64,000 nucleotides of DNA from Paraspadella gotoi (Eukaryota > Animalia > Chaetognatha): positions 1,003,367 through 1,067,366 of the forward strand of contig CM119269.1 of NCBI GenBank assembly GCA_051294375.1, in the 5' to 3' direction. The first letter of the stretch is position 1; each line of letters starts with the position of its first letter. This document shows, piece after piece, positions 4,051-61,174 of this stretch. The notes under the pieces were generated by a model. It did not search any database and was not told the origin of the DNA. It was given only the letters and a program-made list of their open reading frames with translations. The translations under genes and the position numbers were made by a program.

Positions 4051-4761
4051 GGTCGGTGTGCAGAGTTAAGGTAGTCGCCAGAGTAAACCTCTAACCTTGA
4101 TCGCGGCATAAGCGGCTCGTACCGAAATAGTATATCCGTGACGCAAAACGACTTACGCGACCCGTAGCCTGTGGGCCAAGATGGCGGCCAAGAGGGCGGA
4201 AGACTTTCTCGCACCAAGCGCGGCGCGAATTAACGAGCGGTAGAAGTTCGGCGAGGCGTGGCTTTAAAAAGGGGAGGATATCTTGTAACACTGAGAGGTG
4301 TACCGCCCGGTCCTGTTCAATAGAGCGAGGGAACTCCGGTTGTAATGTTCGCTTTATCCTTTCTTGCTAAATGGGACGCTAAAGAAGAAATTGTGAAAAG
4401 AAAAAAAGGAAGGGCTTTTGTTTCGAAACCGTCGTTTTCAAATCGAAGGGCGCTAGGGGCGAGAAGGGGGGAGATTCGCCAACGATTGATTAGACTCTCG
4501 TCCGGCGTGATTGTGAAAATTGAGGCTTTACTCGCGGTTTGATGCCGTTGATGGCGAGAGGGAGAGAGAGAGAAAAGAGAAACGAGACTTTGAATCTTAA
4601 CTTATTGTCATTTCATTTTTGAAGAAAATAGGAAACAATAGGGAAAGCAACTTGGCTTTTATTATCCATCTTGACGAAGGATAACAGATGGTTTGTTTTT
4701 TTTTTTTTATGTTAATTACAGTTTGAGTTTAGTTTTGACAAACGATTTATTTAAATTCAAA

Positions 4762-4808
4762 AAACAGACATGTTTTCGGCTTCATTCAAGCCTTCAATCA
4801 ACAGCATT
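4762..4808 (-). ncRNA. Degenerate inverted copy of the hammerhead motif
   Basis: Reverse complement reads gctgttgattgaaggcttgaatgaagccgaaaacatgtctgtttt. Stem II GGCTT/AAGCC is intact; the core boxes carry insertions. Confidence 0.5.
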
Positions 4809-4887
4809 AGTGAACTTGGAAAATATTTTTTGTGTAAAGGAAAGAGAGAAAGAGAGATAAACACAAAAAATATTCCAAAGTTTCACT

Positions 4888-4933
4888 AAATTGCTGATGA
4901 AGGCTTGAAAAGAAGCCGAAACATGTCTGTTTT
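4888..4933 (+). ncRNA. Minimal type I hammerhead ribozyme motif (Penelope-like element type)
   Basis: CTGATGA (4894-4900), extra A, stem II GGCTT/gaaaag/AAGCC, GAAA, palindromic CATG loop, TC (predicted cut after 4927), then AATAAA at 4935. Stem I is weak (aaattg/tgtttt). Confidence 0.7.
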
Positions 4934-6249
4934 GAATAAATAAAATCGTTGCAAACTAAACTCAACTGTTCTCTAATCGTCCCAAAACAACGAAAAGAAA
5001 GGATTTATATCACAATGTTAATTTTACTGCAACATAATAATGCTCTAAGTTATGATTAAAATATTTCGTTCATGACCTACAAACTAAGTTAATCACTATT
5101 AGTTTAATAAAACAAGTTCATATAAAGGATCAATCGTTTCGTCGAGGGATAATTATTACTGCAGATGTTGTAATACAGATATACATTCCGATCAACAGAT
5201 AATTAAATGGGGGATGTCAATGACCAGAAAAAGGAATTCAATATCAATATCTTCCGATATGGAGGGAAACAAAGCTAAACCAAAAAACTTATCTTTCTTT
5301 GTTAAAACATATTTACTTATTGAAAACTCTTTCTCTGCTTTCAGTTTCAAATTTCCTTGAAATTAAAAGGTCGAGCGAAAAAGGGGAGAGAGGGGGGGAA
5401 TGTGGGGAGGAGGAAGGTGAAGAGGAGGAGGAGGAGGCAGGCAAGAGGAGAAGAGCGCCGGTTTATCACAAATCGTAGATGAAGGAAAGGAAATGCGGAG
5501 TTTTTTTTTGTTTTGTTTTTTTTCAAAATCGAGGGGCATCCAGTCCTATCTTTCTAAATATCATGGATAGCGGAAACAAAGGGGATATTTAATTTCGAAA
5601 TGCCATTTGCCAGAAAATCCAAGTAAAAAAATATAAAAATCAACTCCGGTATATAAAAAAAAACTCAGAGTTAGAAACCGGAATAATTATTTAAAGAGGA
5701 TAACAACAAAATATCTGACTGGGAGAAAAATAACGCGTCGGTGAACATTAAGTGCACTTCAGAGAGACGAATAAATGCGCACAAAGCGAAAATATATAAT
5801 AAACGACGATGTTCTATCAAACTGATATAATCGACATCAAGATGGTCAAGGCAACTAGGAGACTAATAATACAAAAAAAAACAAAACACAGAAAAAAAAC
5901 CACAAAACGACAAGAGACACGAACAGCAGACCAAAGACGTCCGACCCGAAACCAAATTCTTCTTATATTTTTTCTATTAGCTACGCATATAATTTTTTTG
6001 AGTTGCGTTCAATGGTTGAATCCGCGACGTCCGCCTCTTCGTTTCAGCTTGAATGAATAAAAGCTACACCATGAGAGATCGTCCTCGTTGCCCAGCGCGA
6101 GCGGGGTACTCTCACCCTACACTAAAAAACTCCATACCCGCTCCTCCTCACTTCCTTTGTCTCTTCTCTGCCAAACTTGACATCTCAAACCTCTCTAAAC
6201 TACCGTCTCTTCGTACTAGGATTTTTTGGATCAAATCCCGTTGTTTCCC

Positions 6250-11060: not shown

Positions 11061-11112
<52 letters not shown>

Positions 11113-11157
11113 CTCCTCTCTCCTCTCTCTCTCTCTCTCTCTCATGTCCGGCCACAC

Positions 11158-11558: not shown

Positions 11559-11608
<50 letters not shown>

Positions 11609-12279: not shown

Positions 12280-12309
12280 CTGCAGTGGAGGCGTCATAGA
12301 AACAGGCGC

Positions 12310-13061: not shown

Positions 13062-13172
<111 letters not shown>

Positions 13173-13658: not shown

Positions 13659-13759
13659 CTCTCACGCAGTTTGTAGAGAAAGTGATCCAAGTTGAAGGGT
13701 GGGTTGGAATAAACGTCGCAAAAAAGGATCTGTTCTCGGTCGTTGGAGTGAAAGTTCAC
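13659..13759 (-). CDS. IgSF protein exon, N-terminal part of a third Ig-like domain
   Basis: Acceptor tttctcgattccag|GTG, donor GAG AG|gtgagt; 101 nt, phase 0 to 2. Encodes VNFHSNDREQILFCDVYSNPPFNLDHFLYKLRE (L-x-C-x-V-x-S-N-P-P motif). Confidence 0.85.
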
Positions 13760-13819
13760 CTGGAATCGAGAAATGGGAAGAGGGAAGTCGGTGAGAAGGG
13801 GGGGGGGAAAGGGAAATGA

Positions 13820-14390
13820 GGGGGAAGAAAGGAAGAAAAGGAGGAGAAAAAATAAGGGAAGGGACGAGGGAGGGAAAGGAAAGACAGAGAGATAGAAGAA
13901 AGGAAAGGAAAGAGGGAAAGGAGGAGAAAAAATAAGGAAAAGGACGAGGGAGAAAGGAAAGACAGAAGTAGAAGAAAGAAAGGAAAGGAGGAGAAAAAAT
14001 AAGGAAGGACGGGGAGGGAAAGGAAAGACAGAAGTAGAAGAAGGAAAGAAAGGAGGAGAAAAAAATAGGGAAAGGACGAGGAGGGGGAAAGGAAGACAAG
14101 AAGTAGAAGAAAGAAAAGAGAAAGGAGGAGAAAAAAAATAAGGGAAAGGACGAATGGGAGGGGAAAGAAAGACAGATAGTGAAGAAAGGAATAAGAAAGC
14201 GAGGAGAAAAAAAATAAAGGGGAAAGGAACGACGGGAGGGAAAGGAAAACAGAAGTAGAAGAAAGGAACGAAACAGGAGGAAAAGAAAAAAATAAGGAAA
14301 GAAAGAAAAAGGAAAAGAAAAGGAAAGGAGGAGAAAATAAGGGGGATAAGGACGCAGGCGAGGGAAAGGAAGACAGAAGTAAGAGGAAAT
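13820..14390 (+). repeat. Purine-rich minisatellite, ~60-bp unit
   Basis: Recurring aaggaggagaaaaaataaggaaaggacgagggagggaaaggaaagacagaagtagaag. Confidence 0.85.
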
Positions 14391-15078
14391 TATCGAACGT
14401 CAGGAAAAGAAAAAGGAAGCGATGAAACACTTAAGAGATAGAAGAGAGAGAAAGAGAGAGAGAGAGAGAGAGGAGATGAGAGAGAGAGAGACGAGAGAGA
14501 GATAGAGACGAGAAGAAGAGATGAGAGAGAGAGAGAGCTGACGAGAGAGACGAAGAGACGGAGATAAGAGGAGATGAGACGATGAGAGACGGAGAGATGA
14601 GAGAGGAGAGAAGAGGAGAGAGAGAGAAATAAAACCATTTTGGTCAAGAACAGAATAGTTCCGCTCAGTTCCGCCGAACGAAGGGCGAAAAAAGCCCAGA
14701 GAATGAAGGGCGAAAAAAGCCGAGAGATGGCTCGGAATATCAGCGGGCAGATTGCAAAGGAAAGTGGATGGAATCGAAGGGAGAAAAAAGAAAGGAGAGA
14801 ATCAACTTGGACGGTTGCGGCGAGAGAGAGGAGAGATCAAGAGGATTTTTTTTTTATGGTGATCGACTCTGGGCGGAGCGGCTTAAAACGATTATGTAGA
14901 TATACAGCGGATATAGAATTTAACGTCATAGGAAGCGCAAACAGGATCGTCGGGGAAATTGTGGTGAAGAATATCGCTCTGTGCGAAAAAAGATTGGACT
15001 TTGTAGCGAGAGCGAAAGATATTCGGGTATTTTAAGTCTGAGAACTAAATCGAATTCAATTTGATAATTAATTCTTAC

Positions 15079-15180
15079 TTGTTGTGGACAGATCATTCTC
15101 GGTTTGAACTGGATGTTAAGAACCCCGCAAGACGTATAGGGAAATGGGTTGCTTCGATTCCAAAAATCGTGGTGAGTCAC
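15079..15180 (-). CDS. IgSF protein exon, end of the C2-type domain and linker
   Basis: Acceptor ctgcgcag|GTG, donor CAA|gtaaga; 102 nt, phase 0 to 0. Encodes VTHHDFWNRSNPFPYTSCGVLNIQFKPRMICPQQ (C-x-V-x-H across the junction; L-x-I-x-F-x-P domain end). Confidence 0.88.
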
Positions 15181-15597
15181 CTGCGCAGTTTAAATCATAT
15201 TTTTATATATATATATATATATTTTATTTATGAATGTTAGATAAAAGAAGTTACGAAAAGTAATGAATAGAAAATTAGAGCTGTCAACATTTAAGTCCAA
15301 ATTGTGCCGAGAACGAAAATTATTCTCTTTCGCTCAGTCAGCCGCCGCCGACTTATGAAATTACTTGGGCTTGCAAACAAATTGCGCTACAATAACAAAA
15401 GAGCAATCCCCTTAATCTTTATGAGACGTCTACTTCATTTGTAATAAACAATGTTAAACATGTCAATGTTATATAACTTGGGCTATTTACTACCCCGTCG
15501 TAATCGAGCCAACTTGGTAAACGTGAGCGCGTTAGTCGAGCGTGAGGCGCAACAACAACAACAACAACACCGAAATCCCTTCCCCCGTGAGACTCAC

Positions 15598-15704
15598 CTG
15601 GCACGTGAGTGTCTTTCCGTGAAGGCGGTAGGAGGGCGTGATGGCCAAAACGGAAGTCGTTTGGTTCTCGCTCACTTTGGGCAGCGTCATCTTTGCGTCG
15701 TTAC
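15598..15704 (-). CDS. IgSF protein exon, middle of the C2-type Ig domain
   Basis: Acceptor ccgttgccag|GT, donor CAG|gtgagt; 107 nt, phase 1 to 0. Encodes GNDAKMTLPKVSENQTTSVLAITPSYRLHGKTLTCQ, matching the CD80/nephrin-like C2-set motif T-S-x-L-x-I-T-P-x(4)-H-G-x-x-L-T-C. Confidence 0.9.
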
Positions 15705-16599
15705 CTGGCAACGGAGAGTTTTTTTTTGATGACGGGTGGGGAATAGAGCGTGGGATAAGGCGGGTCGGATCGCGCGCGAGATGGGTAAAGATTGACGATG
15801 ATTTAGAGAGAGAGAATCCCCGACTGATGAAGACGCAGAGAGGACATGAAGGGACAGTGATTATCGAGAGGAGAACGAGTCACCGAGAGCCGAGACATGA
15901 CGGCCTAGCATGAGCGAGGAGAAGAAACGGCGCGGACCGAGATACAGTAGGAGAGTCCTGATGAGTTGAGACTGACGACACGCCGCCCCTGCGCGACTGA
16001 CGAGAGAGAGAGGGAGTGGACGAGAGAGGAGACGAAAGGGAGAGAGAGAAGAGAGAGGAGAACGACTCCAAAGCGGAGTTTACGGCCTACTCAGTCTAAG
16101 TAACCAGTTGATTAAAGCTAAGATAAGAGAGAGCTACCGGAGTTGGCTCAACTGAAAGTAGTCATGGATTGAATTTCTTATAGTTGGGTGACTAGCGATG
16201 TAATGCAGAATCGCCCAATACATATATTAAAAGTTTTTGTAATCTAATCAGTCGGGATTGGGCTTATCAGCAGGTATCTTGAGTCTTTAATTTTCACATT
16301 TTGGTCGGTCCGTTGTGTGTCCGCCCCCCCCCCCGAGAGAGAGAGAGCGCCCGAACCCGACGTCAAAGAGAGATGATGGTCGACGGAAGAGGCACGATCA
16401 ATGAGAGATGAATAATCAGTTGCGAATATTATGATCATATGATGACTACTCGGATGAACATCGGAATGATAAATTATATCAAAAAGTAAAGATATCGATG
16501 GATTTCGTTGATCCATACCTCTTTTAAAGGGGAAAGGCACCTAAGAGTTTGGAGGTTCGATTAATCAAAAGTAGCGGCCTGTCGCCGGCGATTTCACGC

Positions 16600-17560
16600 G
16601 CGATCTCCCTGCCCTTGATCCGTATGATAAAAGGCGATCGGTTCTAGTTGATGCACAGGTTGTGACCTCCGCCATGGGCCACCAGGGCTTTGGCGTAGTC
16701 ATGCCTGCAAAGTCCCACCACCTGCGGGCGATCCTCGCCAAAAAAAGTGATTTAAAGCAACAAGTAAATGGCAGAATTATCCCGGTACATTCTCCATTGC
16801 CGCTCAAAGCGCCTAAACCGAGATCTAACGCTGTCCTATATGATTGCGAATCGGACCACCACGAGGAGCCCTCCCCACAACCCCTATCCTAAACCAAAGC
16901 CTTCCGTTATCAACTCTGTGTCTTCCCACTAACCGCGCATACAGACCACACACCAAGCAAGCCGGGGGACCCTCACCAGCGCTAGACATCTCCGTGGCCT
17001 CAACCCTTACAACCCTAACTGCGCTTCATGCAGATCAACCACCGGGGCCTTCCCCAACCCCGAGTCTACCGCTAAACTAAGCCCCCGTGATCAACGCCTC
17101 CATGCCTCCCCCAACCCTAACCCAGAGGCCCAGGCAATTCGCCTCCCGTACATCTCCGTTGCCGTCAAAACCCTAACCCTAACCGCGCATGTACGGGGAG
17201 GCCGAGTAGAAGGCCCAGAAGTGAGGGTAGGAGGCGACGAGGCACTGAGTTGAAACGGCCCGTAGGGGTTGCTTTAGGGTATAGGATGGTTTGGGGAGAG
17301 GAGGAGTCCTTGGTATGGTGTAAGTGTTTCATCAACCTGTGGGAAAGAGTAACGAAAACGATGTAAAGACTAGTGAAATCCGCTGCAGATCATTATATTT
17401 CCCGCATGCCTTTTAATCACTGGCGATCAGCCGCGGTCCGCCAGTCAGATAGCATGGCGACAGGGGACTTTGGCACATCGCAAACACCCCTGGGGCAGTC
17501 GTTTATCGCCCATTTTGGCGGAAGTCGCAGCTTTCACCATACGTGAGATTATCTCATCGT
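16600..17560. repeat. Long degenerate inverted repeat with internal TAACCC-containing subrepeats
   Basis: 16657-16725 is similar to the reverse complement of 17455-17535, and 16856-16905 to the reverse complement of 17260-17315. ccctaaccctaacc-like motifs recur between 16880 and 17185. Confidence 0.5.
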
Positions 17561-28530: not shown

Positions 28531-29612
28531 GTTAATTAGAGAGAGAGAAAGAAGAGAGAGAGAGAGAGAGAGAGAGAGGAAGTTTATTGAGAGAGAAATA
28601 TAGAGAGAATAATAAATAATAATAAAAGTTTTTAGAAGGAAAAAAATAAAAATCTGGAAATAAAATTGGAGATTTTATTAAGAAAAAAGTGGCGTGATAA
28701 AAATAAAATTGTTTTATTAGAGTTGGATTAACATCAAATTAACTTCTATTTTTTCAATTGGAATAAGACCTGAAGTCTTTTGTTCATCTAGTTTAAAATG
28801 AGGTTGAAAACCTTTTTTTTGCATATTATGAAATGAATGAGATTGATATTGAATGGTATGAATGAAAACTCTCGCGCTATAGCAGCTAAACTATTTTCAA
28901 TAATAACGGTCAAAAAATTATAATCTCTATTAACAAAATATATAGTTGACAATAATCAGTTAACGACTATAAATATTTTGACTTCCAATATTTTTTTACT
29001 ATTAAAATAATTTTATTTCCTCATCTTAAAATTTTAATCTTGATGAAATTTTAGATTGTTACATTTTTATATATATATTATTTATTAATAAAAAAAAAAT
29101 ATTATTTATATTAACCGCCGCAATTCCCGGATATATAGGCAGGTATCGCAACCTGTCCCACAAGTTGATGTACAATGTGACATTGCCTGTATTATAAGTT
29201 TTTCTTCCCTTTTTCTAAAATGAATTCACGAAAATCTCGGATGTAAATTTGGGATTTTGTATTGAGAAAAAAAATAAATGGCGATAATAAAAGTTTTTAG
29301 AAGGAAACAAATAATAAGAATTTTTCAAAAAACGAACGATCACGCAAGAGATCGTACAGAGAGAGACAGACGCACACAGAGAGAGACAGAGAGAGACAGA
29401 GAGAGACTGAGAGAGACTGAGAAAGACAACGCCTGAAAAAAAAATAGATAATTAAAAAATAAATAAAAGAAAGGCAAAATTTACAATTGGAAATTTTTCC
29501 AATTTTTTCCAATCATAGGTTGTTAACGATTTTATTTTTATTTGTATTAAAATTAAGATATAGCTTTCATTAAAAAGTTATTGAGAGTTCCCATTTTTAT
29601 TACAGATTTAAA

Positions 29613-29717
29613 AAAAAACAAAGTTTTTAATTGTGTTACAACGAATTTAATTAGAGATTAATTAAATAATAATAATTAGATAAATTCGTTGTAACACAAT
29701 TAAAAACTTTGTTTTTT
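29613..29717. repeat. 37-bp perfect inverted repeat related to the hammerhead-element tail
   Basis: aaaaaacaaagtttttaattgtgttacaacgaattta (29613-29649) vs taaattcgttgtaacacaattaaaaactttgtttttt (29681-29717). It shares taaattcgttgta with the tail of the 45447-45492 element. Confidence 0.8.
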
Positions 29718-29756
29718 CTCTAAATCATAACAACAACGAAAACGAAAGGTTTATCG

Positions 29757-29940
29757 CATCAGATTTAAAAAAAAAATTTTGAATTTCATCTTCAATATTA
29801 TATACTGCAATATGTAAATTAGATTAAAGCATTTCTATATACTAATTTGGATATTATAATGAGTACTATAATCTCATTTGCATATTGCAGTAAATCATAA
29901 TGAAGTGGAAATTCAAACAAAAAATACTTAAATCCAGATG
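29757..29940. repeat. Degenerate ~70-bp inverted repeat (MITE/foldback-like)
   Basis: catcagatttaa...tactgcaatatgtaaattagatta vs taatctcatttgcatattgcagta...ttaaatccagatg. Confidence 0.65.
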
Positions 29941-31964: not shown

Positions 31965-32033
<69 letters not shown>

Positions 32034-32220
32034 AGAATAAGAAGATCGAGAGAAGGAAGAAAAAACAAAGATATTTCTCAAGATCTTTCCTTTTCGTTGA
32101 ATGTTTTGAGCAGAGATCATATTTGCTATTTTCCTATTTCCTACTTTTCGCTCTCCACGATTTTCCCCTCTATGTTCCGTGACCAATCTCTCTCTCTCTC
32201 TTCGTCTCTCTCTCTCTCTC

Positions 32221-32262
<42 letters not shown>

Positions 32263-38520: not shown

Positions 38521-40091
38521 CTCTCTCTTCTCTCTCTTCTCTCGTCTTCGTCCATCCTCTCTCGTCATTCTCTCATCACTTCTCTCCTCTCCCCTTCTTC
38601 ATCCTCGCAGTCTCTCTCTCCGTCTTTCTCTCCTCTCTCTCGTCGTCGTTCATTCATTTCTCCTCTCTCCTCGGTCTCGCTCGTCCTCTCGTGTCCTCTC
38701 TCGCTCTCTGCTTCTCTCTCCATCTTCTCGTCTCTCTCTTCTCTCCTTCACCATAAGTGAACGGTCAAGTTCGGTTGCAATTCTCGAGACGATTTACTTT
38801 CCAAAAAAAAATATCGGCCTTTCGTTTTTTTAAACAAATTTTCTTTTTTCCTCTCATAGGCGGTCGCCCTTCGTCCTCCCACCCGTGATTCAGTAGCGAT
38901 AGTTTAAATACAAAAAAAAAAATAGACATCCCACACCGATGAATCCGAAGCAAATTTTTCCGCCTTTCGCAAAATGTTCTCTCTCTCTCTCCAGTCCTCC
39001 TCTCTCTCCGAGCTCACTCCTTCTCCTACTCCTCTCGTCCATCCCTCGGCACTCTCTCCTCAACCTTCTCTTCTCCTCCTATCTCTCTCATCCTCTCTCA
39101 GGTCCGCGTCCTTCGTCGCCTCTCCCTCTTTCTTTCTCCCCCTCCCCCTTCCTTCCGCTTCATATTTTTCGGTGCTAGTAAACTAACTCTGTAACTTGTC
39201 AATTACAATAATTCGTTAGTTGACGGGTCAATAAAATTCTTTTTCTGGTAAACCTTGGAGCGGTGATTCGAACACGTAAACACTCATAAAAAAGGGAAAA
39301 AAACAACTTTTCCCAGCGAGAGAGAGAAAAAAGGTAGTGAGAAACTAATAAAGATAAAATTTGCTCTGTTGTGCGGAGAGAGGGAGAGGATTAGAGAAGC
39401 GGATGAGCGAGAGCAGAGAGAGAGAGAAGAAGAGGAGAGAGGAGAGAAGAAGAGAGAGGAGATAAGGAAAGAGAAAGAGAGAGAGAATAGGGTCGAACTT
39501 CGGTCGACTTCATGGGACACTTACTGAGGAAATATGTTATGTGAAGCTACAAAAGAAAAAAATCCAGTAGAGAGAGAGAGAGAAGAGAGAGAGAGACGAG
39601 AGAGAAAGAGAGAGAGAGAGAGACNNNNNNNNNNNNNNNNNNNNNNNNNNNNNNNNNNNNNNNNNNNNNNNNNNNNNNNNNNNNNNNNNNNNNNNNNNNN
39701 NNNNNNNNNNNNNNNNNNNNNNNNTTGTTTGTTTTTATTTCTATTGTTATGCCTCGTTTTCGTTCTTCGATTCGGAAAAATTTTCAAAAGGAACAAAAGA
39801 ACAAAAAAAACAAAAGGAAATCGGGGATGCGGTTTTGCTCTTTTGGGAAGTTTAACGATAACGCTCTCACCCTGGGTGCTAGACATCAAGTTCATTCCCG
39901 GAAAATAATTTAAAGCCCAATAATTATAAGGATTTTCTGTTTGTTTACTTTTTGGCGGTTTCGCTCTTTCGCGGAGAAAAACAACTCGTAAAAATTGCGC
40001 AATATAAATCTGATCGATCCAATTTCTTTAATAATGTTTACTCCCACTCTTTCTTTCTGTCTCCCTTCCTCTCTCTCGCTCTTTAATAGAG

Positions 40092-40170
<79 letters not shown>

Positions 40171-40632
40171 TGAGAGGATAACACAAGAAATTGGCAAGAG
40201 TTGCTGTCAACCCCTTAAAAGGAGGAAAACCTCAAAACAAAACGAGAAGGGGGAAGAAATCTCGCAACACTTTCTTCCCTTCAATAACAGAAATCAAACT
40301 CCTAAGTCACAGATTTTTATCAATCTTAATATTTATTATTTGACTAAGATGTTCAATCTGTTTTTCTATTCGATTTATTAGTTTTTGAATTCTTATTCAA
40401 CATCACTAAACAAGATATTGTAAAAAAAAAAACTAACTATAGTTTCATATTCAAAGCAAAAAAACTTTAGAGTCTCATCAAACGCAAAAAAGCCTTGCTC
40501 GAATTTTCTCTTGAGCAGGTAGCAAACATCTGCAGAAAGAGGACAAACACAAGCTGAAAAAAATAGGAAGAGAAAAGGAAGGTTTTGAAATCATGAATCA
40601 GCAAAAACTTGACGTTGTTTTGATATCGATGA

Positions 40633-43881: not shown

Positions 43882-45446
43882 GTTTATCAATATCGCAGTC
43901 ACAGATGTCGCTCTTGTCAAATGAGGACGTTGTCCTCTCGCCAGTGTCGTTACTGATATTTTTTTTCTTATTTCGTTATACGCAGAATTATTGTCTATAT
44001 TCCCCACAACCGGATCTCGATATTCCGATTATGCCTGACCTAGTAGTATTTAACAATTACTTCGGCTTCATCTTTTTGTGCAATATCGGTTGCAAAACGA
44101 TTCCAATATATTAACAGTATATTAACATCGTTCGGCCAATCCCATTGGCTCACAGGGGGAACACACCATCCCAGGCGTTGTGTTCCATCCACAGTCCAAA
44201 CGACTTCCCTCTACATTGGAAAAGCGAGACCCTCCTAGGGTAACCTAGCCAATGTCCTATTATTTCTCAATTCTTTAATGTCATATATGTCATTTATGTT
44301 GTATATTTTCATGTGATCATCATCCCCGGCATCAGCCCTGTCACTGAAAAAAGGGTGTCACTGTCATCAATGTCGAATCCGCGTTGCTTCGTCGTCCTCA
44401 TTCCCTTTGTCATTGGCTTCCTTCGTCGCTGTTTTCTCATCACTGTCTTCATTTATCCTTTTATTTGATATTCTTCCCTTTATTAACCTTTTCGACAAGT
44501 TCGCCGACATAATCATGAGAAAATTAAGGTGGTTAAATATGTCATTCTTTATTTGTCAATATGTTGATTTTTTTCGTCCTGGCGGTCGTCGTTGAAATCC
44601 TGCTTCATCGTCCTTTGTCGTCATCATTCATTGTCAACGTTTGTCATCATCTGTCATCGTGTCGACGTCGCCTTTTCGTCGTCGCTCTCGATTCTGTCAT
44701 TCCGCTTGATCGTTTCCCGACACGACGTGTCTCCACTCTTGTTGTCGTCGTCGTCGTCGTCGTCGTCGTCGTCTAGTGTTTTTTTTTCTCTTTAAAAATT
44801 ATTGATTTCCCGTCGCCGAGTTCTCGACGTTGATGTTTGATCAAAACCCAAACTTTTGTTTGAAAAGAATGAGGGCGAATAAAGAGGGCGCGATCGTGGT
44901 TTGTCGAAGATCGCGTCGGGTCGCATCAGTACGACACTGACTTGTCAGAAAATTCTTTGAGCTTTTTTTAATTGAAAATCTTTCAATAATTTAACCGTTT
45001 CTATGTTAATGTTATGTTATGTTAATGCTTGGCGTGTTACTACTTGATCTGAAATTAATTTTCTATCCGGAGTCATCTTCAGCTACAGCGACCTAGATGC
45101 GACCTAGATGAGGCTCTAGTATGTTACATTAACATTTGAGTCTTGACGATTTAAGCACAGTTGATATTGCTTACATTACTTGTTTAAATAGCGTTTTGAA
45201 AGTTTTTGCTCGATAAATGAAAATGAAACTGCAATATTTTTACAACACTCTAAGCAAGTGAAGAAAAACTGGAGAAGCCCAAAGGCCCAGCTGTGTGAAA
45301 TGCTGTAAATAGCAAAGAAAATTAAATATGAGCTAAATGTGCATGTATGAAGAATATATTATCAGATTTAGATTTAGATATGATGTAAACTGATTACAAA
45401 GTTGTAAGTTTAAATTTGTATTGTACAACGAATTTAATGATTATTA

Positions 45447-45492
45447 ATTTGGGACATGTTTCGGTCTTTCATTCAGACCTTCATCAGCAAAT
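45447..45492 (-). ncRNA. Minimal type I hammerhead ribozyme motif (Penelope-like element type)
   Basis: Reverse complement ATTTG-CTGATGA-A-GGTCT-gaatgaa-AGACC-GAAA-CATG-TC-c-CAAAT: intact core, 5-bp stem II, palindromic tetraloop, and a 5-bp stem I if one C of the CCC run is surplus. Confidence 0.8.
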
Positions 45493-45791
45493 GTGAGATT
45501 GTGACAATTTAGGAAATATTGAGAGAGAGAAACAGAGAGAGAGAGAGAGAGAGAGAGAGGGTAAAGTTAACAAATTTAAAACTTACCAACTTAGTATATT
45601 CAATTAACATACAAACAACGACAAAAGCAAAGGAAAAGATTACAAAGATATGATGTAATTAAATTGTTATCAAATTTACAATTTCGTCTTTTTTTTGGGG
45701 TCGAGTCACCTCGTTTGGGAAAAAAATCAGATATCCGACGGTCCGAAGTGGCATTGATGAGAGATGGACCGAGTGCACTGCACTGAGGGGG

Positions 45792-47059: not shown

Positions 47060-48456
47060 TTAGCGCTGGATAATCGAAACGCCTGCGCCGCCGACTGCGA
47101 TTTTTGCAAAAAAGGAGGCGGAAGATGCGCCGATTTATCATCGGGAAACAGAATCGGGAACGTCTCGCCTCTTTTCTTTGCAACGGTCTTCGGAATGGCT
47201 GTCCTCGCTACCGCTACACAGTTTTGAAACGAAAGTTTCCGCGCCCATTAACGTTTACCACGTTCGGTTGAATTTTGTTCCTATTTTGTCTTATATATGT
47301 TGAAATAAGATAGAAGTTTTATGAAAATAAAAGAAATACATTAAGACTTTAAGTTGATTAACGGACCTCACCTCAGTAACGGGGACTCGTACGGACTCCG
47401 GAGGGAGCTCGAACGTCGATCGTCACAGCAGCTAACAACAGATTCCCGTACTATAATTCACTTTGTCGGTCCGTCGGTCATCCCCCAAAATCATGTCGGT
47501 AAGTCACTTATATCATCTCAGAATATCGAATTATAAAAAAATTATGCTAAGAAATCGATGACCGTCCGGCCGTACGTCCGTTCGTCTGTCTCTCCCTCCG
47601 TCCGTTCCCCCTTAGCTTTAAACGCCAATTAGTCCGTCCGTCCGTCCGTCTGTCCCCCTGTCCGTCCGTCCGTCCCCCTTAGATTTCAACGCCAAATAGT
47701 TCGTCCGTCCGTCCTTCCGTCCGTCCGTCCGTTCGTCCGTCTGTCCGTCTGTCCCTCCTTAGCTTTGAACGCCAATTAGTCCGTCCGTCCGTCCGTCCGC
47801 CAATTAATACTACTATATACTTCCCACTTCATGGATTCGTCGTCGGATCAAAAATGTCAACACGATTTGATGATGCGATTAGAATTAACGTTGATGAAAG
47901 AAAACGACTTAGAAAACGACAAGAAAACGACAAGAAAACGACAAGAAAACGACTAAGAAAACGACAAGAAAACGACAAGAAAACGACAAGAAAATGACAA
48001 AGACAAAGACGAGATATCGTGAATGTCAAACTTTGCAACAGCGACCGACAGGAAGAAGAGATTGACGAGTCTGAAAGAGTCTGTCGAATTTTGGCGTCGC
48101 GAGCCTCGTTTTCGAACCGGAAGTGACGTCACGTCGCGGAAACAAACATTTTTTTTTTCGCGCGAAAGTGAAAATCGTCAAGGTGAGGATTTTGGTGGGA
48201 GAAGTTGGGTTACGTCGTTGTGGATAAGAGAGCGGGTGATAGTGATAGTGATAGTGAAAAGTCAACCCTTATCAAAATGTGCATATACTTTTTTGTCTAA
48301 AATCGTTTTTCATTCCTACACATTTTTTGTCCTGGTTTTTCTTCCTTCCAAGATTCAGGTTTGGTTTGAGGCGAGAAAAAAAAGGAAAAAAAATGGTCTT
48401 ACACCGCTTGCTATCTCGATAGACTCTTCCAAGAATAAATCCCTCTTTCTGAACCC

Positions 48457-48511
<55 letters not shown>

Positions 48512-48701
48512 CTCTCTCTTCCTCTCTCTCTCCCTCTCTCCCATTCTGTCTCTCTCTCTCTCTCTCGCATTTTGGATCTTTCATTCCTTTTCGTCTTTTC
48601 TTTTCTCTTTTTTACTGCTCTTCTTTTCTCTGACTCGTTCATGGAACATAAAAATATTCTAAAAGTGCTTCTACCTGATCGCCTACATACTCTCCTCTCT
48701 C

Positions 48702-48734
<33 letters not shown>

Positions 48735-48745
48735 TCTCTTCCCTC

Positions 48746-48776
<31 letters not shown>

Positions 48777-49400
48777 TCCCACCGCGCGAAGTCACAGGAA
48801 AAGCTTCACCTGAAATTTGCTTTCAGAAATGGAAAGAGTTTGTGAAGCCTAAAACCGGAAACAAAGAAAGAAAAGCGAGTCGAGGAAAAAGGGATTCACG
48901 TGAATAGAAATGAGGAATTCTTTGAAATCGAGCGACGTCTGGGCGGAGTAGTGAAAGAGGACGACGACTGCCGGGACGACGACGACGACGACAATGACGA
49001 TGAAATATCTACCTCTACCGAACTGACGCAATTCTAAAATATTTATTGAAAGAGAATTGGTTTTTATCGAATTATCTTTAGTAATTACAAATTGTCGCCA
49101 AGAATGAATAAAAGATTGAGAATCTATACCGTTCAACGAACAACAAACAAACAACAAACAAACGACGACGACGACCACAAAGACGACGATGAACCTTGGA
49201 TCGAGTTTCATCTTCTCGGCGGAGCAGCGGCGAGCCATACTTCGGCATAGCGGCTCCATGGCGAACCAGACTGAGGAGCCGCGGCGCCGTGACGAACCAG
49301 ACTGAGAAGCGGCGGCGCCGGAGCGCGCCGGGAGGCTTCGACAAGCGCCGAAAGGTCGTCGACGTCCGAGTCGACGCGAAGTCATTAGTGATGATTCATT
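47060..49400 (-). CDS. Cluster of noisy candidate upstream Ig-like exons (duplicated at about 56505-58880)
   Basis: Splice-bounded islands read PKTVAKKRGETF (~47060-47212; the second copy reads GETFRFC), VTIDVRAP-ESVRVPVTE|gtgagg (~47371-47430), TNSLSINILELRQFGR (~49012-49123) and a GC-rich LLIVCVRHGAA-like stretch (~49195-49400). Frames differ between the two copies. Confidence 0.3.
47560..48003 (+). repeat. Compound repeat: ~65-bp units with (GTCC)n and ttagctttaaacgccaattag, then (AAAACGACAAG)n
   Basis: Three ccttagctttRaacgccaattagtccgtcc-like units, then an 11-bp repeat at 47900-48003; duplicated at about 57005-57460. Confidence 0.8.
48117..48190 (+). promoter_or_regulatory. Promoter-like cluster: overlapping ETS-CRE site, palindromic E2F-like site, then splice donor
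   Basis: CCGGAAGTGACGTCAC at 48117-48132, TTTCGCGCGAAA near 48156-48167, AAG|gtgagg near 48183. Confidence 0.35.
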
Positions 49401-51139
49401 GAGCAATTTCTGGTCCCGATTTAGTCATGACGGAACCCGCGAAGAGAAAGGGGGGGCGTGGCGGAGGAAGGGGAAGGTAAGGCGGGGTAAGGTCCTCTTT
49501 TTTTTCCGCTTCGTCGAAGTCTTTTCGTTTGGTTTTTTTTCCCGGAGGAGAGCGGGTGATCGGATGGTGATTAGATCCAGGGAAGGGATTTTGGAAGTTG
49601 GGCGAGTGATTGGTTTTTTTTTCTCTTGGTAAACGATTGGATATTTTTTCTTTCTTGGGTTCGTATAGGATCGACGGTTTCCTTTTGCTTTGGTGGTTTT
49701 AGTCACTGGACGGAGATTTCTGTTGTCATTGGGGTGACAAACTTTTATTAATTTTACGGTTCCGAAAGTGATGAAGATTTTTTCTTACAATATCCAAATT
49801 TTGGCAAAAAGGTTTTTTTTTTGTTGTCCCATTGTCTGCAATTTACATTACGGGAGAAAATAATCAGGATAAGCGGATGGGAAGTCAATCCCAAGAGGAT
49901 GGAAGCCAAACGAGGATCAAATTTTTAAGAGAAGCCAAGTTATCAGAAAGCCGATGGCAGATGGCAGATGGCAGATGGCAGATGGCAGATAGTTTCTGCC
50001 TCGTAGCATCTATTTTCTTCAGTCGAGTTTCTTTATTTTGTTTATTTGTTTTTTGTTGATTCAAGTTACTCGAATTAACTCAAATGTATTTATTTGTATT
50101 TTTACGTAATACTGAATCTGATTTTCAGGATTTTTTTTATCATTAAATTAATGAATCTTCGTTGTTCAGCTAAATTCTCTCATGCACTCGTATTTCTCTC
50201 TTCAATAGCTTTCGTTCTCCTTTCTCTTTCTCTCTCTCTCTTCTCTCTCTCTTCTCTCTCTCTCTTCTCTCTCTCTTTCTCTCTCTCTTCCTCTCTCTCT
50301 CATCTCTCTCTCTCCCTCGCCAAATCTGACGCCAACCGGCGCCAAAAATGACGCAGAGAAATTTTAATTAAAATTCGGACAAAGAATCGAGACGCGATCT
50401 TTGCCCTTCGACGGCCGTAAATTTCGAGGCTTAGCCGAACGTTTGTGAACGAGTCGGGCGATAAACCACCTCCGCTGGTTACTATAGCAACCGATCTCGT
50501 ACGAGTTGAAGGAAATTCAATCTCAATGAGATGTTAAAGCTGAACTAAGATCTGTCACGACTTAACGTAAATTTTGTTGTTGTTTTGACATCGACTTTTG
50601 GAGGAATTTGAATAATTTGTAATTCGCAATATCATAGTGAAGTAGGCAACGCCAGTATAATAATTTTTTCCTTTTTTTTGCCTTTTCCATTATGAAAATA
50701 CAATTATCTATAAAAATAAAGAACTTTATTATGTTTATACGTATATATTAAGTTCTTTCGTGAGTAAAAATAACTGTATCTTAACCCGTCGATTTTCCCT
50801 TCAAGTTTTGACGTCTGATGGCGACGGAGAATCGCGCGCCATCTGTCCGCGCGGATTCTAGGGATAAATAAACTATTAGAGGAAAAAAAAAGAGACGGTG
50901 GCACGCAGCGACGTGGAGGTGTGGAGNNNNNNNNNNNNNNNNNNNNNNNNNGTGGAGGGGAACGGGAAAGGGGAGAGAGAGAGAGAGAAGAGAAAGGAGA
51001 GAGAGAGAGAGAGAGAAGAGAGAGAGGAGAAGAGGAAGAAGAGAAGAGAGAGATAAAGAGAGAGAAAGAGAGAGATAAGAGAGAGAGAGAAGAGAGAGAG
51101 AGAGAGAAGAGAGGAGAGAGAGAGAGGAACAAAACCAGA

Positions 51140-51530
51140 GAGAGTCAGTTTTTCCCAAGCTGTCATCATGAAGATCAGTTTTCTTCCAAGCTGTCATCAA
51201 TCAAGGTCTATTAAGAGTTTTCTAAGAATCGAAAAGATGGCGCCAATTTTTCTTGCGTCATAGTCGTCGTTGCGCTCGGAAGTCGTCATTGTCGTCGTCA
51301 TTGTCGTCGTCATTGTCGTTCGTCATTGTCGTCGTATATTCGTCGTCATTGTCGACGTCATTGTCGTCGTCAATATTCGTTGTCATTGTGTCGTCATTGT
51401 CGTCGTCATATTCTCGTCATTTTCGTCGTCATATTCGTCGTCAATTGTCGTCGTCATTTGTCGTCGTCATTGTCGTAAGAAATGTTTCTCTCGTCGATTT
51501 TTTTTCTCGTCGGAATAGTCGTCGTCATTA
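51140..51530 (+). repeat. Repeat block: agtttttccaagctgtcatcatca doublet plus (GTCGTCATTGTC)n 12-mer array
   Basis: Present three times: about 51140-51530, 54560-55028 and 60603-60990. Confidence 0.85.
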
Positions 51531-55235: not shown

Positions 55236-57905
55236 AGAAGTGATAGGGAAACGAGGGCGCACAAACATAGACGTTTGCGGTTTAAACCTCCTTGAATCTG
55301 AGGAATTGGCTTTTTCTCCCCTTACCCTCCCACCTCGTCTCCGTGCCAGTGATTTTAGTTCTGAATCAATTTGTTGCAATTGCTTGCCCTCTTCGATGCA
55401 AAATTAATATTACCGTACGATCAATTCGAAAGAGGGGGTCGCACAAATATACTCCATTTTTAAATGTAGATCCCAAACATTCCGGGAAAAACTTCCTTCC
55501 GCACGAATCGATCATTAATTTATTTATTTTTTTTCCCCAGTCGTCCTGGCCCATATAATTTGAATTGTATATATTAAATATATTTTTTTTAATATTTTAA
55601 GAATTTTTTAAAAAATGATTTATATTTTATATTAACTTTTGAAGAAGGAAATTTAATCTGGCCAACTAAATTAAGAAAAGCACTATTTTAGCGTCGCTCG
55701 TGCGAGGTTAATTCAGATTCGTCAACAATTTTTCAAAACAAAAGAACTAAAGAAAATTCCAAATTTTCAATACGATTCTTTTTCATACTAGAAATGACGC
55801 TTTTAAAATTTTGTTGCTTAACGTTTTTAAAGGAGTTTTTTAAAATCCTTTGTTCCAGAAAATTTGATTTAAAAATTCTAATGAATTTGCTACATTATTG
55901 GCGTTTTTTTGGCGTGGTTGGTTCCATTCCCAGAGGAGGTATGAAGAAAAAACATTTAAAAAAAAAAAAATTTATCCCATGCTTAAGTAATAAATGTAAA
56001 TGATAACGTCGCCACATTTGACCTGCACTGTGTAGCACATGAAATAATAATTATTTTATAAACAAGAATGGTCCTTCCAATGCGTGTGGGGCCACAATTA
56101 TTATTTTTTGACTGAGTGATACCTTTTTTAACGTGAAGACAGCACCAACGTACAGACATACCGAACGACCGAAATTGACTTTATTTAGTTTATTGAGTTA
56201 TTGAAGTTGCTCGCGCGGCGCAACAAAAAGACCGTTTGAAAAGACAGGTTCATCTCTCGCTCGCCGCAACACAACGCATCCCTATGATTTTAATTCTTGT
56301 AATTTAAGTAATTTGTTTCGTACAGATTTTAGAGAAAATTCCATTTTTGCAAAACAAACGAAGAATGTCAAGAAAAAGCAACAAAAAACCCTCTGGCGCT
56401 TTGCTGTCAGGAAGTTTCATGTAAACATATAAAAACCTAAACCCTGAAAAAAAGATATTATCTAAATTTAAAAGTTTTCTCCTGATTATTACCAACATTA
56501 TTTACTTAGCGCTGGATTTAATCGAAAACGCTGCGCCGCCGACTGCCGATTTTTGCAAGGAGGCGGAAGTATGCGCGATTTATCATCGGAAACAGAATCG
56601 GAACGTCTCGCCTCTTTTCTTTGCAACGGTTCTTCGGAATGGCTGTTTCCTCGCTACCGCTACACATTTTGAAACGAAAGTTTTCCGCGCCCATTAACGT
56701 TTACGCAAGCGTTCGGTTGAAATTTTTTTGTTCCTATTTTGTCTTATATATGTTGAAATAAGATAGAATTTTATGAAAAAAGAAACATTAAGGACTTTAA
56801 TTGATACGGACGGCTCACCTCAGTAAAGGGGACTCGTACGGACTCCGGAGGGCTCGAACGTCGATCGTACAGCAGCTAACAACAGATTCCCGTACTATAA
56901 ATTCACTTTGTCGGTCCGTCGGTCATCCCCCAAAATCATGTCGGTAAGTCACTTATATCATCTCAGAATATCGAATTATAAAAAATTATGCTAAAGAAAT
57001 CGATGACGTCCGGCCGTACGTCCGTTCGTCTGTCTGCTCTCCCTCCGATCCGTTCCCCTTAGCTTTAAACGCCAATTAGTCCCGTCCGTCGCGTCGTCTG
57101 TCCCCCTGTCCGTCCGTCCCGTCCCCTAGATTTCAACGCCAAATAGTTCGTTACCGTCGTCCTTCCGTCGTCCGTCCGTTCGTCGCGTCTGTCCGTCTGT
57201 CCTCCTTACTTTGAACGCCAATTAAGTCCGTCCGTCGTCCGTTCCCAATTAATACTACTATATACTTCCTTACCAATGATTCGTCGTCCCGATCAAAAAA
57301 TTTCAACACGATTTGATGATGCGATTTAGATATAACGTTGATGAAAGAAAACGACTTAGAAAACGACAAGAAAACGACAAGAAAACGACAAGAAAACGAA
57401 CTTAAGAAAACGACAAGAAAAACGACAAAGAAAAACGACAAGAAATGACAAAGACAAAGACGAGATATGCGTGAATGTCAACTTGCAACAAGCGAACCGA
57501 CAGAGAAGAGATTGACGAAGTCTGAAAAGAGTCTGTCGAATTTTGGCGTCGCGAGCCTCGTTTTCGAACCGGAAGTGACGTCAACGATCGCGAAACAAAC
57601 ATTTTTTTTTTCGCGCGAAAGTGAAAATCGTCAAGGTGAAGGAAATTTTGGTGGGGAATTGGGTTACGTCGTTGTGGATAAGAGAGCGGGTGATAGTGAT
57701 AGTGATAGTGAACAGTCAACCCTTAATCAAAATGTGCATATACTTTGTCTATCGTTTTTCATTCCTACACAATTTTTTGTCCTGGTTTTTCTTCCTTCCA
57801 AGATTCAGGTTTGGTTTGAGGCGAGAAAAAAAAGGAAAAAATGGTCTTACACCGCTTGCTATTCTCGATAGACTCTTCCAAGAATAAATCCCTCTTTCTG
57901 AACCC

Positions 57906-57968
<63 letters not shown>

Positions 57969-58187
57969 CTCTCTCCCCTCTCTCCCATTCTTCTCTTCTC
58001 TCTCTCTCGCATTTTGGATCTTTCATTCCTTCTTCGCTTTTCTTTTCTCTTTTTTACTGCTCTTCTTTTCTCTGACTTCGTTCATGGAACATAAAAATAT
58101 TCAAAAGTGCTTCTACTGATCGCTCTCATCTTCTCTCTCTCTCTTCTCTTCTCTCTCTCTCTCATCTCTCTCTCTCTCTCTCTTCTC

Positions 58188-58218
<31 letters not shown>

Positions 58219-61174
58219 TCCCAAGCGCGAAGTCACAGGAAAAGCTTCACCTGAAATTTGCTTTCAGAAATGGAAAGAAGTTTGTGAAGCTAAAACCGGA
58301 AACAAAGAAAGAAAAGCGAGTCGAGGAAAAAAGGGATTCAGTGAATAGAAAATGAGGATTCTTTGAAATCGATCAGCGACGTCTGGGCGGAGTAGTGAAA
58401 AGAGGACGACGACTGCCGGGACGAAAACGACGTCGACCGACAATGGACGATGAATATCTACCTCTACCGAACTGACGCAATCTAAAATATTTATTGAAAG
58501 AGAATTGGTTTTTTTAATCGAATTATCTTTAGTAATTACAATTGTCGCCAAGAATGAATAAAAGAATTGAGAATCTATACCGTTTCAACGAAACAACAAA
58601 CAAACACAAAACAAAACGACGACGACCGACCACAAAAGACGACGAGAACCTTGGATGAGTTCATCTTCTCGGCGGAGCAGCGGCGAGCCATACTTCGGCA
58701 TAAGCGGCTCCATGGCGAACGCAGACGATGAGGAGCGGCCGCGGCGGCCGTGGACGAACGCAGTACTGATTTTAAAGCGGCGGCGCCGGAGCGCGCCGGG
58801 AGGCTTCGACAAGCGCCGAAAGGTCGTCGACGGGGTCCGAGTCGACGCGAAGTCATTAGTGATGATTCATTGAGCCAATTTCTGGTCCCGATTTAGTCAT
58901 GACCGGAACCCGCGAAGAGAAAGGGGGGGCGTGGCGGAGGAAGGGGAAGGTAAGGCGGGGTAAGGTCCTCTTTTTTTTTTTCCGCTTCGTCGAAGTCTTT
59001 TCGTTTGGTTTTTTTTCCCGGAGGAGAGCGGGTTGATCGGATGGTGTATTAGATTCCAGGAAAGGGATTTTGGAAGTTGGGCGAGTGATTTGTTTTTTTT
59101 TCTCTTGGTAAACGAATTGGATATTTATTTCTTTCTTGGGTTTCGTATGGGATCGACGGTTTCCTTTTGCTTTTGGTGGTTTTAGTCACTGACGGAGATT
59201 TCTGTTGTATTGGGGTGACAAACTTTTATTAATTTTACGGGTTCCGAAGTGATGAAGATAATTTTTCTTACAAGATCCAAATTTTTTGGCAAAAAGGTTT
59301 TTTTTTTTGTTGTCCCATTGTCCTGGCAATTTACATTACGGGAGAAAATAATCAGGATAAGCGATGGGAAGTCAATCCCAATGAGGATGGGAAGCCCAAA
59401 CGAGGATCAAAATTTTTAAGAAGAAGCCAAGTTTCAGAAAGCCGGATGGCAGATGGCAGATGGCAGATGGCTGATGGCAGATAGTTTCTGCCTCGGTAGC
59501 AGTCTATTTTCTTCAGTCTGAGTTTTCTTTTATTTTGGTTTTTTTGTTTTTTTGTTGATTCAGTTACTCGATTAACTCAATGTATTTATTTGTATTTTTA
59601 CGTAATACTGAATCTGAATTTCAGGATTTTTTTTTTATCATTAAATTAATGAATCTATCTTCGGTTGTTTCCAGGCTAAATTCTCTATGCCTCGTATTTT
59701 CTCTCTTCAATAGCCTTTCCGTTCCCCTTTCTCCTTCTCTTTCTCTCTCTCTCTCTCTCCTCTCTCTCTCTTCTCTCTCTCTCTCTCTCTCTCCTCCTCC
59801 TCGCCAAATTCTGACGCAACCGGCGCCAAAAATGACGCAGAGAAATTTTTAAAATTAAAATTCGGACAAAAGAATCGAGCGCGGATCTTTGCCCGCGAAC
59901 AGCCGTAAATTTCGAGCTTAGCCGAACGTTTTTGTGGAACGAGTCGGGCGATAAACCACCTCGCTGGTTACTATAGCAACCGATCTGTACGAGTTGAAGG
60001 AAATTCAAATGCTCAATTGAAGATGTTAAAGCTGAACTAAGATGCTGTCACGACTTAACGTAAATTTTTGTTGTTGTTTTGAACATCGACTTTTGAGGAA
60101 TTTGAATAATTTGATAATTTTCGGTAATATCAACGCCATTTTAGTATAATAATTGTTTCCTTTTTTTTGCCCTTTTCCATTATGAAAATATAATTATCTA
60201 TAAAAATAAGAACTTTTATTATGTTTATACGTATATATTAAGTTTCTTTCGTGAGTAAAAATAAACTGGTTATCTTAACCCGTCGGATTTCCCTTCAAGT
60301 TTTGACGTCTGATTGGCGGACGGGAATCGCGCGCCATCTGTCCGCGCGGATTCTAGGGATAAATAAACTATTAGAGGAAAAAAAGAGACGGTGGCACGCA
60401 GCGACGTGGAGGTGGTGGAGGGGAACGGGAAAGGGGAGAGAGAGAGAGAGAAGAGAAAGGAGAGAGAGAGAGAGAGAGAAGAGAGAGAGGAGAAGAGGAA
60501 GAAGAGAAGAGAGAGATAAAGAGAGAGAAAGAGAGAGATAAGAGAGAGAGAGAAGAGAGAGAGAGAGAGAAGAGAGGAGAGAGAGAGAGGAACAAAACCA
60601 GAGAGAGTCAGTTTTTCCCAAGCTGTCATCATGAAGATCAGTTTTCTTCCAAGCTGTCATCAATCAAGGTCTATTAAGAGTTTTCTAAGAATCGAAAAGA
60701 TGGCGCCAATTTTTCTTGCGTCATAGTCGTCGTTGCGCTCGGAAGTCGTCATTGTCGTCGTCATTGTCGTCGTCATTGTCGTTCGTCATTGTCGTCGTAT
60801 ATTCGTCGTCATTGTCGACGTCATTGTCGTCGTCAATATTCGTTGTCATTGTGTCGTCATTGTCGTCGTCATATTCTCGTCATTTTCGTCGTCATATTCG
60901 TCGTCAATTGTCGTCGTCATTGTCGTCGTCATTGTCGTAGAAATGTTCTCTCGTCGATTTTTTTCTCGTCGGAATAGTCGTCGTCATTAGCTTTCAACTT
61001 GGCTAAATTATTAATAATGTTTTGGCTCTGACGCCAGAAGCGTTTTCCTTAAATTATTTTTTTTTGAAAACAATAAAACTTGAGAATCCATTATTATAGT
61101 ATTATTATTATTATATCGTTTGGACGAGCTCATCGCCGCTCCACAATGGAGTCCACATGTCACTCTTTTTTTTT
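55054..61174 (+). repeat. Segmental direct duplication, copy 2 (probable assembly artefact)
   Basis: Bounded by N gaps on both sides; colinear with 45650-51730. Confidence 0.93.

What the first reader, a model, noticed from the sequence alone, without database searches (positions are those of the whole stretch)
45399..45592. Second hammerhead subfamily member with compensatory stem II changes and the same architecture
Seen: minus-strand ATTTG-CTGATGA-A-GGTCT/AGACC-GAAA-CATG-TC-cCAAAT. Stem II differs from the 4.9 kb copy (GGCTT/AAGCC) at two positions on both strands with pairing preserved, which is covariation. It again sits next to an (AG)n tract (45520-45560), and a partial inverted copy of its tail lies on the far side (45399-45419 vs 45570-45592). 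Inference: the structure is under selection, and the family may target or generate AG microsatellites, which are very abundant here.
Basis: partly seen in the sequence, partly recalled or inferred. Interest (0 to 1): 0.78.

Follow-up and report, generated by a model that had tools for sequence, protein, structure and literature searches.

The report
Penelope-type hammerhead insertion carrying AG tract
A hammerhead-ribozyme motif sits in a short, much-repeated insertion whose inverted arms, one-sided tail and flanking direct repeat make it a likely remnant of a Penelope-like retrotransposon, a known kind; its AG repeat lies inside the insertion, so it is likely carried along rather than targeted.

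Summary
The motif is real: a minimal type I hammerhead core (minus strand 45453-45487) whose stem II differs from the 4.9-kb copy by two compensatory pairs. It sits in a 257-bp unit: 13-bp direct repeat, inverted arm with the hammerhead, AG tract, short arm with a 36-nt extra tail, repeat again. The 4.9-kb copy and a third, hammerhead-less copy at 29.6 kb share this layout (9- and 16-bp repeats), as do 5 of 9 assessable metagenome loci with the same core; one further locus has the core behind a GIY-YIG frame. This is the published anatomy of Penelope-like element (PLE) insertions. The AG tract is inside the duplicated target, the targets are AT-rich, the third copy has no AG, and only 1 of 97 AG/CT tracts in the window lies in a family insert: targeting is not supported. 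Reads keep CCC, and every listed contig over the 5' side has nine extra bases there, so stem I is weak and this copy is probably a poor ribozyme. New member of a known kind; the AG-at-junction link is the open point.

The parts
45376..45388 (+). left copy of 13-bp direct repeat (likely target-site duplication), AT-rich
   Evidence: sister copies stop matching at 45384-45391
45389..45520 (-). long arm: element 3' end without the tail, read leftwards; carries the hammerhead
45453..45487 (-). minimal type I hammerhead core: CUGAUGA, extra A, 5-bp stem II (45475-45479 with 45463-45467), GAAA, palindromic ACAUGU helix III; predicted cut after C at 45453
45447..45452 (-). 3' strand of stem I with the extra C; imperfect in the catalytic register
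45521..45560 (+). (AG)n tract at the junction of the two arms, inside the insertion; contigs show (AT)n before it
45561..45609 (+). short arm: 5'-truncated inverted copy of the element 3' end
45610..45645 (+). one-sided AC-rich tail, homologous to the tails at 4970-5014 and 29714-29759
45646..45658 (+). right copy of the 13-bp direct repeat
4709..5023 (.). second family insertion: 9-bp repeats 4709-4717 and 5015-5023, left arm 4718-4835 (-), purine-rich centre 4836-4861, right arm 4862-4969 (+, core 4894-4927), tail 4970-5014
29603..29775 (.). third family insertion, both arms cut off 3' of the hammerhead: 16-bp repeats 29603-29618 and 29760-29775, arms 29619-29653 (-) and 29679-29713 (+), AT-rich centre without AG tract, tail to 29759

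Best explanation
The unit at 45376-45658 is a short insertion of two head-to-head arms, one with a hammerhead motif and one with an extra tail, between 13-bp direct repeats, and it is likely a 5'-truncated product of a Penelope/Poseidon-type retrotransposon's terminal repeat (pLTR). Shown: the core, stem II covariation, the arms, tail, flanking repeats, three such units in the window and a high copy number. Inferred from published PLE biochemistry: the element's GIY-YIG endonuclease cut AT-rich DNA on both strands with a stagger (the direct repeat); its reverse transcriptase extended both ends, starting at two nearby sites of the RNA (the tail is the stretch between them); the two cDNAs stopped at different points and were joined head to head. 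Inferred here: the CT/AG tract is part of the element's sequence about 35-45 nt upstream of the hammerhead, so it appears only where an arm reaches that far, and it then lengthens by slippage. The hammerhead would cleave only as a dimer through the palindromic helix III, probably with protein help; this copy, with an extra C in stem I, is predicted to be weak or dead. Selection acted on the source elements.
For: Direct repeats bound 3 of 3 window units at the arm ends (9, 13, 16 bp); a match under matching rules occurs at 232 of 4867, 109 of 4942 and 106 of 5131 control positions. Read data put the ends at 4718, about 5018 and 45384-45391 independently. Tails of 36-46 nt on one arm only. Same core in 110 metagenome loci: 16 of 110 have an inverted copy, 14 of these upstream (head to head); of 12 examined, 9 had flank, and 5 of the 9 show a 9-13-bp repeat at one arm end and 10-43 nt beyond the other. 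L079 has the core at the 3' end of a same-strand 307-aa frame with a GIY-YIG match (E 5e-4, below Pfam's cut-off) and Atlas neighbours carrying GIY-YIG and HTH_animal at 0.95-0.97. Stems covary in 65 distinct stem combinations: stem II positions 2-5 pair in 51, 56, 45 and 40 of 65 against shuffle means 28.5, 19.5, 21.9 and 16.3, 0 of 2000 shuffles reaching them. 429, 78, 109 and 96 contigs lie on the 4.6-5.1-kb stretch in four runs, summed depth 142,568 at the core against 66 in the flank in X1 (not a copy number). Literature: PMC4209133 (extra base after A9, G10.1-C11.1, palindromic helix III, dimers, motifs on opposite strands 100-700 bp apart), PMC8557442 (inverted 5'-truncated copy, 30-40-bp tail), PMC3846280 (inverted pLTRs in 8-10-bp TSDs), PMC11167929 (AT-rich cuts on both strands, two RT starts, protein-assisted hammerhead).
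Against: No RT or endonuclease frame for this family was seen: none in the window (tblastn with the L079 protein; 0 Pfam hits in the 100 longest of 190 candidate frames) and no genome is held. Only 1 of 110 metagenome loci has an intact GIY-YIG frame and one more a fragment. 4 of 9 assessable head-to-head loci show no repeat at an arm end. Three arms end at nearly the same 5' point, which random truncation would not give. The search pattern was taken from the window's own core, so the core match to those loci and the model hits are circular; only the stems, tails and repeats are independent. No empty allele was seen. The window is noisy at 4.6-4.7 kb (2 other letters and 4 gaps in 104 against X1).
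Confidence: 0.8

Rival explanations
1. The template is a short non-coding RNA with a fixed 5' end (a retrozyme-like, non-autonomous element) that a PLE enzyme copies in trans; the AG or AT letters at the junction are added or picked up when the enzyme runs off that end.
For: Both arms at 4.9 kb end at the same base and the 45.4-kb arm and its sister end within about 10 nt of it; very high depth over a unit of only about 130-170 bp; the centre letters differ between copies (imperfect purine run, (AG)n, (AT)n then (AG)n).
Against: No tandem arrangement, which defines non-LTR retrozymes (PMC7229834 passages); arms at 29.6 kb and 45561 are truncated at other points; a microsatellite inside the template would also make arms appear to end together; a 4821-4871 motif recurs at high depth with the same imperfect pattern, which fits a templated tract.
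Confidence: 0.1
2. The family targets AG microsatellites, as Naiad, Neptune and Chlamys PLEs favour (TA)n or (CA)n.
For: Both hammerhead-bearing window units and a sister copy touch a dinucleotide tract; 12% (4 or more units) to 21% (3 or more) of non-tract bases lie within 50 nt of an AG/CT tract, so two of two is about 0.03 by chance. Microsatellite bias is published for other PLE clades (PMC8557442).
Against: The tract touches the 5' ends of the arms, whereas target priming joins 3' ends to the target; it lies inside the direct repeats; none of the six outer flanks is AG; the third unit has no AG.
Confidence: 0.05
3. A foldback or MITE-type DNA transposon whose terminal inverted repeats captured a hammerhead.
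For: Short unit, inverted arms, flanking direct repeat, high copy number.
Against: Repeat length varies (9, 13, 16 bp), one arm always has an extra tail, inner ends vary, and the same layout goes with a PLE-like frame elsewhere.
Confidence: 0.05

Closest known systems
Minimal type I hammerheads of metazoan Penelope-like elements (Cervera and De la Pena 2014, PMC4209133)
   Same: Core CUGAUGA / GAAA / UC, one extra base between A9 and G10.1, G10.1-C11.1, small palindromic helix III needing a dimer, many dispersed variable copies, pairs on opposite strands 100-700 bp apart.
   Different: Helix II is 5 bp (7-8 bp in the Schistosoma families, 6 bp in Drosophila virilis); helix I of this copy is imperfect; no parent element shown in this genome.
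Penelope/Poseidon insertions with inverted pLTR, tail and TSD (PMC3846280, PMC8557442, PMC11167929)
   Same: Head-to-head 5'-truncated copies, a 36-46-nt tail on one side, AT-rich target, direct repeat of variable length.
   Different: No coding sequence left; a dinucleotide tract at the inversion junction in the copies that reach past the hammerhead, which 0 of 15 metagenome head-to-head loci show as AG/CT (2 have four TA units).
Non-LTR retrozymes (PMC7229834; bioRxiv 10.64898/2026.07.22.740005)
   Same: Small, non-coding, type I hammerhead, proposed to use PLE enzymes.
   Different: Retrozymes are head-to-tail tandem repeats with canonical hammerheads; these units are single inverted pairs.
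Naiad, Neptune and Chlamys PLEs with microsatellite insertion bias (PMC8557442)
   Same: PLE anatomy next to microsatellites.
   Different: There the microsatellite is the target and hides the TSD, and Naiads and most Chlamys lack canonical hammerheads; here it is inside a clear direct repeat.

Membership tests
PLE minimal type I hammerhead | conserved catalytic core (CUGANGA, GAAA, UH) | tested here: met
PLE minimal type I hammerhead | extra base between positions 9 and 10.1, and G10.1-C11.1 pair | tested here: met
   feature list from PMC4209133
PLE minimal type I hammerhead | palindromic helix III, unstable as monomer | tested here: met
   ACAUGU self-duplex -4.6 kcal/mol; closing the monomer pair costs 6.5 kcal/mol
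PLE minimal type I hammerhead | helix I of 2-5 bp next to the core | tested here: inconclusive
   window form: catalytic register -3.5 against shifted register -6.6 kcal/mol; read-supported form pairs only the first base next to the core by eye and was not folded
PLE minimal type I hammerhead | self-cleavage as dimer or with protein | not testable with these tools
   needs an in vitro assay
Penelope/Poseidon PLE insertion | inverted 5'-truncated copy, head to head | tested here: met
   3 of 3 window units
Penelope/Poseidon PLE insertion | 30-40-bp tail on one end only | tested here: met
   36, 45 and 46 nt; high depth over 4974-5024
Penelope/Poseidon PLE insertion | short target-site duplication at an AT-rich site | tested here: met
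   9, 13, 16 bp with controls; empty allele not seen
Penelope/Poseidon PLE insertion | RT plus C-terminal GIY-YIG reading frame ending in this repeat, in the same genome | tested here: inconclusive
   none in the window, genome not held; seen for the same core in L079 from another source
Non-LTR retrozyme | head-to-tail tandem units of 150-450 bp each with a hammerhead | tested here: not met
   three hammerhead arms only, none tandem
Rfam hammerhead families | match to a curated covariance model | tested here: not met
   no hammerhead family among 18 hits at E up to 1 or 4 hits at E up to 10 on 45420-45520
MITE / TIR DNA transposon | fixed-length TSD and symmetric termini | tested here: not met
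   9, 13, 16 bp and one-sided tail

The most novel reading that the evidence does not exclude
The PLE reverse transcriptase, a sister of telomerase, writes dinucleotide repeats itself: on reaching the fixed 5' end of a short hammerhead RNA it adds (AG)n or (AT)n by reiterative copying before the two cDNAs are joined, so each full-length insertion seeds a new microsatellite at its centre.
Probability: 0.07. Interest if true: 0.75.

Novelty: new member of a known kind. Interest (0 to 1): 0.3.

Why it matters
As it stands it adds one more high-copy PLE hammerhead family and a clean set of miniature insertions whose double priming, tail and target duplication can be read directly, matching the in vitro Poseidon mechanism. 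It corrects the idea of AG targeting. It would matter more if the dinucleotide tract at the junction proved to be untemplated, since that would show telomerase-like repeat synthesis by a PLE enzyme and a route by which microsatellites are born; hundreds of copies in this genome make that directly testable.

Tried and rejected
Whole-genome copy collection and R-scape-type test: no genome held. Rfam: no hammerhead hit. Plain folding: z-scores -1.3 to +0.1, uninformative; in the whole 257-nt insert stem II has pair probability 0.07. Two copies co-folded pair through the 5' side, not through helix III, so the dimer is not the predicted minimum. Covariance model R1 ranks only 45445-45495, 4886-4935 and 4767-4796 under E 0.01 of 12 hits, but its core is circular. 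The 92% against 61% pairing comes from 44 of 61 listed loci that I picked mostly for visible stems, on all 110 rows reduced to 65, is the fair count; there stem I position 5 is not above shuffles (503 of 2000) and position 1 only just (6 of 2000). No RNA holder listed; X9 is only guessed to be RNA, so expression is untested. Three look-ups in earlier findings returned nothing. Host taxon not determined (0 Pfam hits); an animal is inferred from the element type. A small inversion as cause of the stem II swap was rejected by eye: the inverted loop does not give the other copy. Half cores at 58-111 and 45060-45087 lack the second half. Paper searches listed nothing on a dinucleotide tract at the PLE inversion junction; this is listing and passage level, and supplements of the cited papers were not read and may bear on it.

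Full report
Observation. The minus strand at 45453-45487 holds a complete hammerhead core with one extra A before a 5-bp stem II and the palindrome ACATGT as helix III. A scan for core halves finds this site and 4894-4927 as the only complete ones, plus a damaged third on the minus strand at 4767-4800. Stem II pairs 3 and 4 differ between the two on both sides and stay paired. All 18 core positions outside stem II and its loop are identical while the flanks match at 21 of 33 and 35 of 64. The AG tract (45521-45560) and the partial inverted copy are there; the latter spans 45384-45426 against 45561-45609 and beats 500 of 500 shuffles. Rfam has no matching model.

Reads. Nine runs hold the region, all Logan contigs, none on record as RNA. 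Laid on 45000-45522 (X1 and X2 are one sample), contigs identical to the window cross CCC without a gap, as do contigs of a sister copy with another flank before 45391, so the extra C is real. Depth over 45504-45521 in X1 and X2 equals that of one listed contig each, which carries nine extra bases behind 45487 (in X1 it runs on into (AT)n); X5 and X9 show the same form, and nothing covers 45522. The window may therefore have lost nine bases in a noisy fill, or its form was filtered out; contigs show presence, not absence. Either way stem I is poor: in the window form the catalytic register is 3.1 kcal/mol worse than a register that leaves an extra C beside the cut; in the read form only the first base next to the core pairs, by eye. 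Laid on 4600-5100, the core draws most of the 78-429 contigs per run with a summed depth about 2000 times the flank in X1 (a rough sign of many copies, not a count). Listed insertions within the core fall at 4907-4912, at and in loop II, and the only listed substitution, T to C at 4928 (37, 20, 19 and 20 contigs), turns the first stem I pair from G-U to G-C.

Anatomy. Each unit is bounded by an exact direct repeat: 13 bp at 45376 and 45646, 9 bp at 4709 and 5015. A profile of the arms finds a third unit at 29603-29775 with a 16-bp repeat. In all three the arms face head to head and only the right arm carries a 36-46-nt AC-rich tail. Control rates for such repeats are 2-5% per site, much of it from the window's tandem repeats. 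The AG tract therefore lies inside the insertion, at the 5' ends of the arms. The third unit, whose arms stop 3' of the hammerhead, has an AT-rich centre with no AG tract. Only 1 of 97 merged AG/CT tracts of four or more units in the window lies in a family insert.

Relatives. The pattern CTGATGAAG-N12-24-CGAAACATGTC gave 110 metagenome loci from 18 of 64 parts of the collection. Their stems, which the pattern does not specify beyond the first pair, covary: in 65 distinct combinations stem II positions 2-5 and stem I positions 2-4 exceed all 2000 shuffles (kinship is not controlled, but slid partners drop from 92% to 22-46% paired in the selected set). Sixteen of 110 have an inverted copy, 14 of them upstream. 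Of 12 examined (L004, L073 and L053 left out), 3 lacked flank; 5 of the other 9 have a 9-13-bp repeat at one arm end and 10-43 nt past the other. None of 15 head-to-head loci has an AG/CT tract upstream. L079 has the core at the end of a same-strand GIY-YIG frame, and L067 has an inverted fragment of such a frame upstream.

Mechanism. Shown: the parts above. Taken from papers: PLE hammerheads have the extra base, G10.1-C11.1 and palindromic helix III, and cleave weakly and only as dimers (PMC4209133; I read parts 1-2 of 4: abstract, results, discussion); PLE insertions often have an inverted 5'-truncated copy and a 30-40-bp tail, and some clades favour microsatellite targets (PMC8557442, passages); inverted pLTRs sit in 8-10-bp TSDs (PMC3846280, passages); the anole Poseidon protein cuts AT-rich DNA on both strands, starts reverse transcription at two nearby sites in an AC-rich stem-loop whose spacing is the tail, needs no hammerhead cleavage in vitro, and assists that cleavage (PMC11167929, parts 1-2 of 4: main text). 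Inferred: both cut ends were extended on element RNA from the two start sites and the truncated cDNAs were joined. For the AG tract the simplest reading is a pyrimidine tract in the element upstream of the hammerhead, copied when an arm is long enough and lengthened by slippage; a motif at 4821-4871 recurring at high depth fits this but was not linked to the core. The common 5' end of several arms leaves open a short RNA with a fixed end and untemplated additions.

Known or new. It works like a Penelope/Poseidon pLTR insertion and meets every DNA-level feature that could be tested; the parent reading frame and cleavage could not be. It fails the tandem test for non-LTR retrozymes (PMC7229834 passages; bioRxiv 10.64898/2026.07.22.740005, part 1 of 5) and the fixed-TSD test for MITEs; PMC8969392 (passages) describes inverted pLTRs and 3' extensions as routine. 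Verdict: new member of a known kind, interest 0.3; the dinucleotide tract at the junction is the one feature not found in the searches run.

Noticed in passing
window 29603-29775: Third family insertion without hammerhead; its left flanking repeat resembles the element's own sequence at the matching place, which hints at microhomology at that junction (in vitro Poseidon priming was reported to need none).
   Followed up: partly
window 45060-45087 (-) and 58-111 (+): Hammerhead half cores (CTGAAGATGAC..., CTGATGAAGCC...) without a matching second half; possibly decayed copies of other families.
   Followed up: no
window about 48000-51200 and 57400-60700: Near-duplicate stretches differing by many small indels (same translated letters): segmental duplication or redundant assembly.
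   Followed up: no
window 31965-32258 and 40043-40176: (AG)n and (CT)n tracts facing each other form long hairpins and give sub-threshold microRNA-model hits; likely chance products of microsatellite density.
   Followed up: no
window 4821-4871: The imperfect purine-rich centre of the 4.9-kb unit recurs at 10,000-17,000 summed depth in X1 with a shared one-base difference at 4841, so it is itself a repeated motif.
   Followed up: partly
L053:1501-1827: Two complete cores head to head in a near-perfect palindrome with no microsatellite at the centre.
   Followed up: partly
L003, L006: Inverted copies downstream of the hammerhead (tail to tail), the rarer arrangement, 2 of 16.
   Followed up: no
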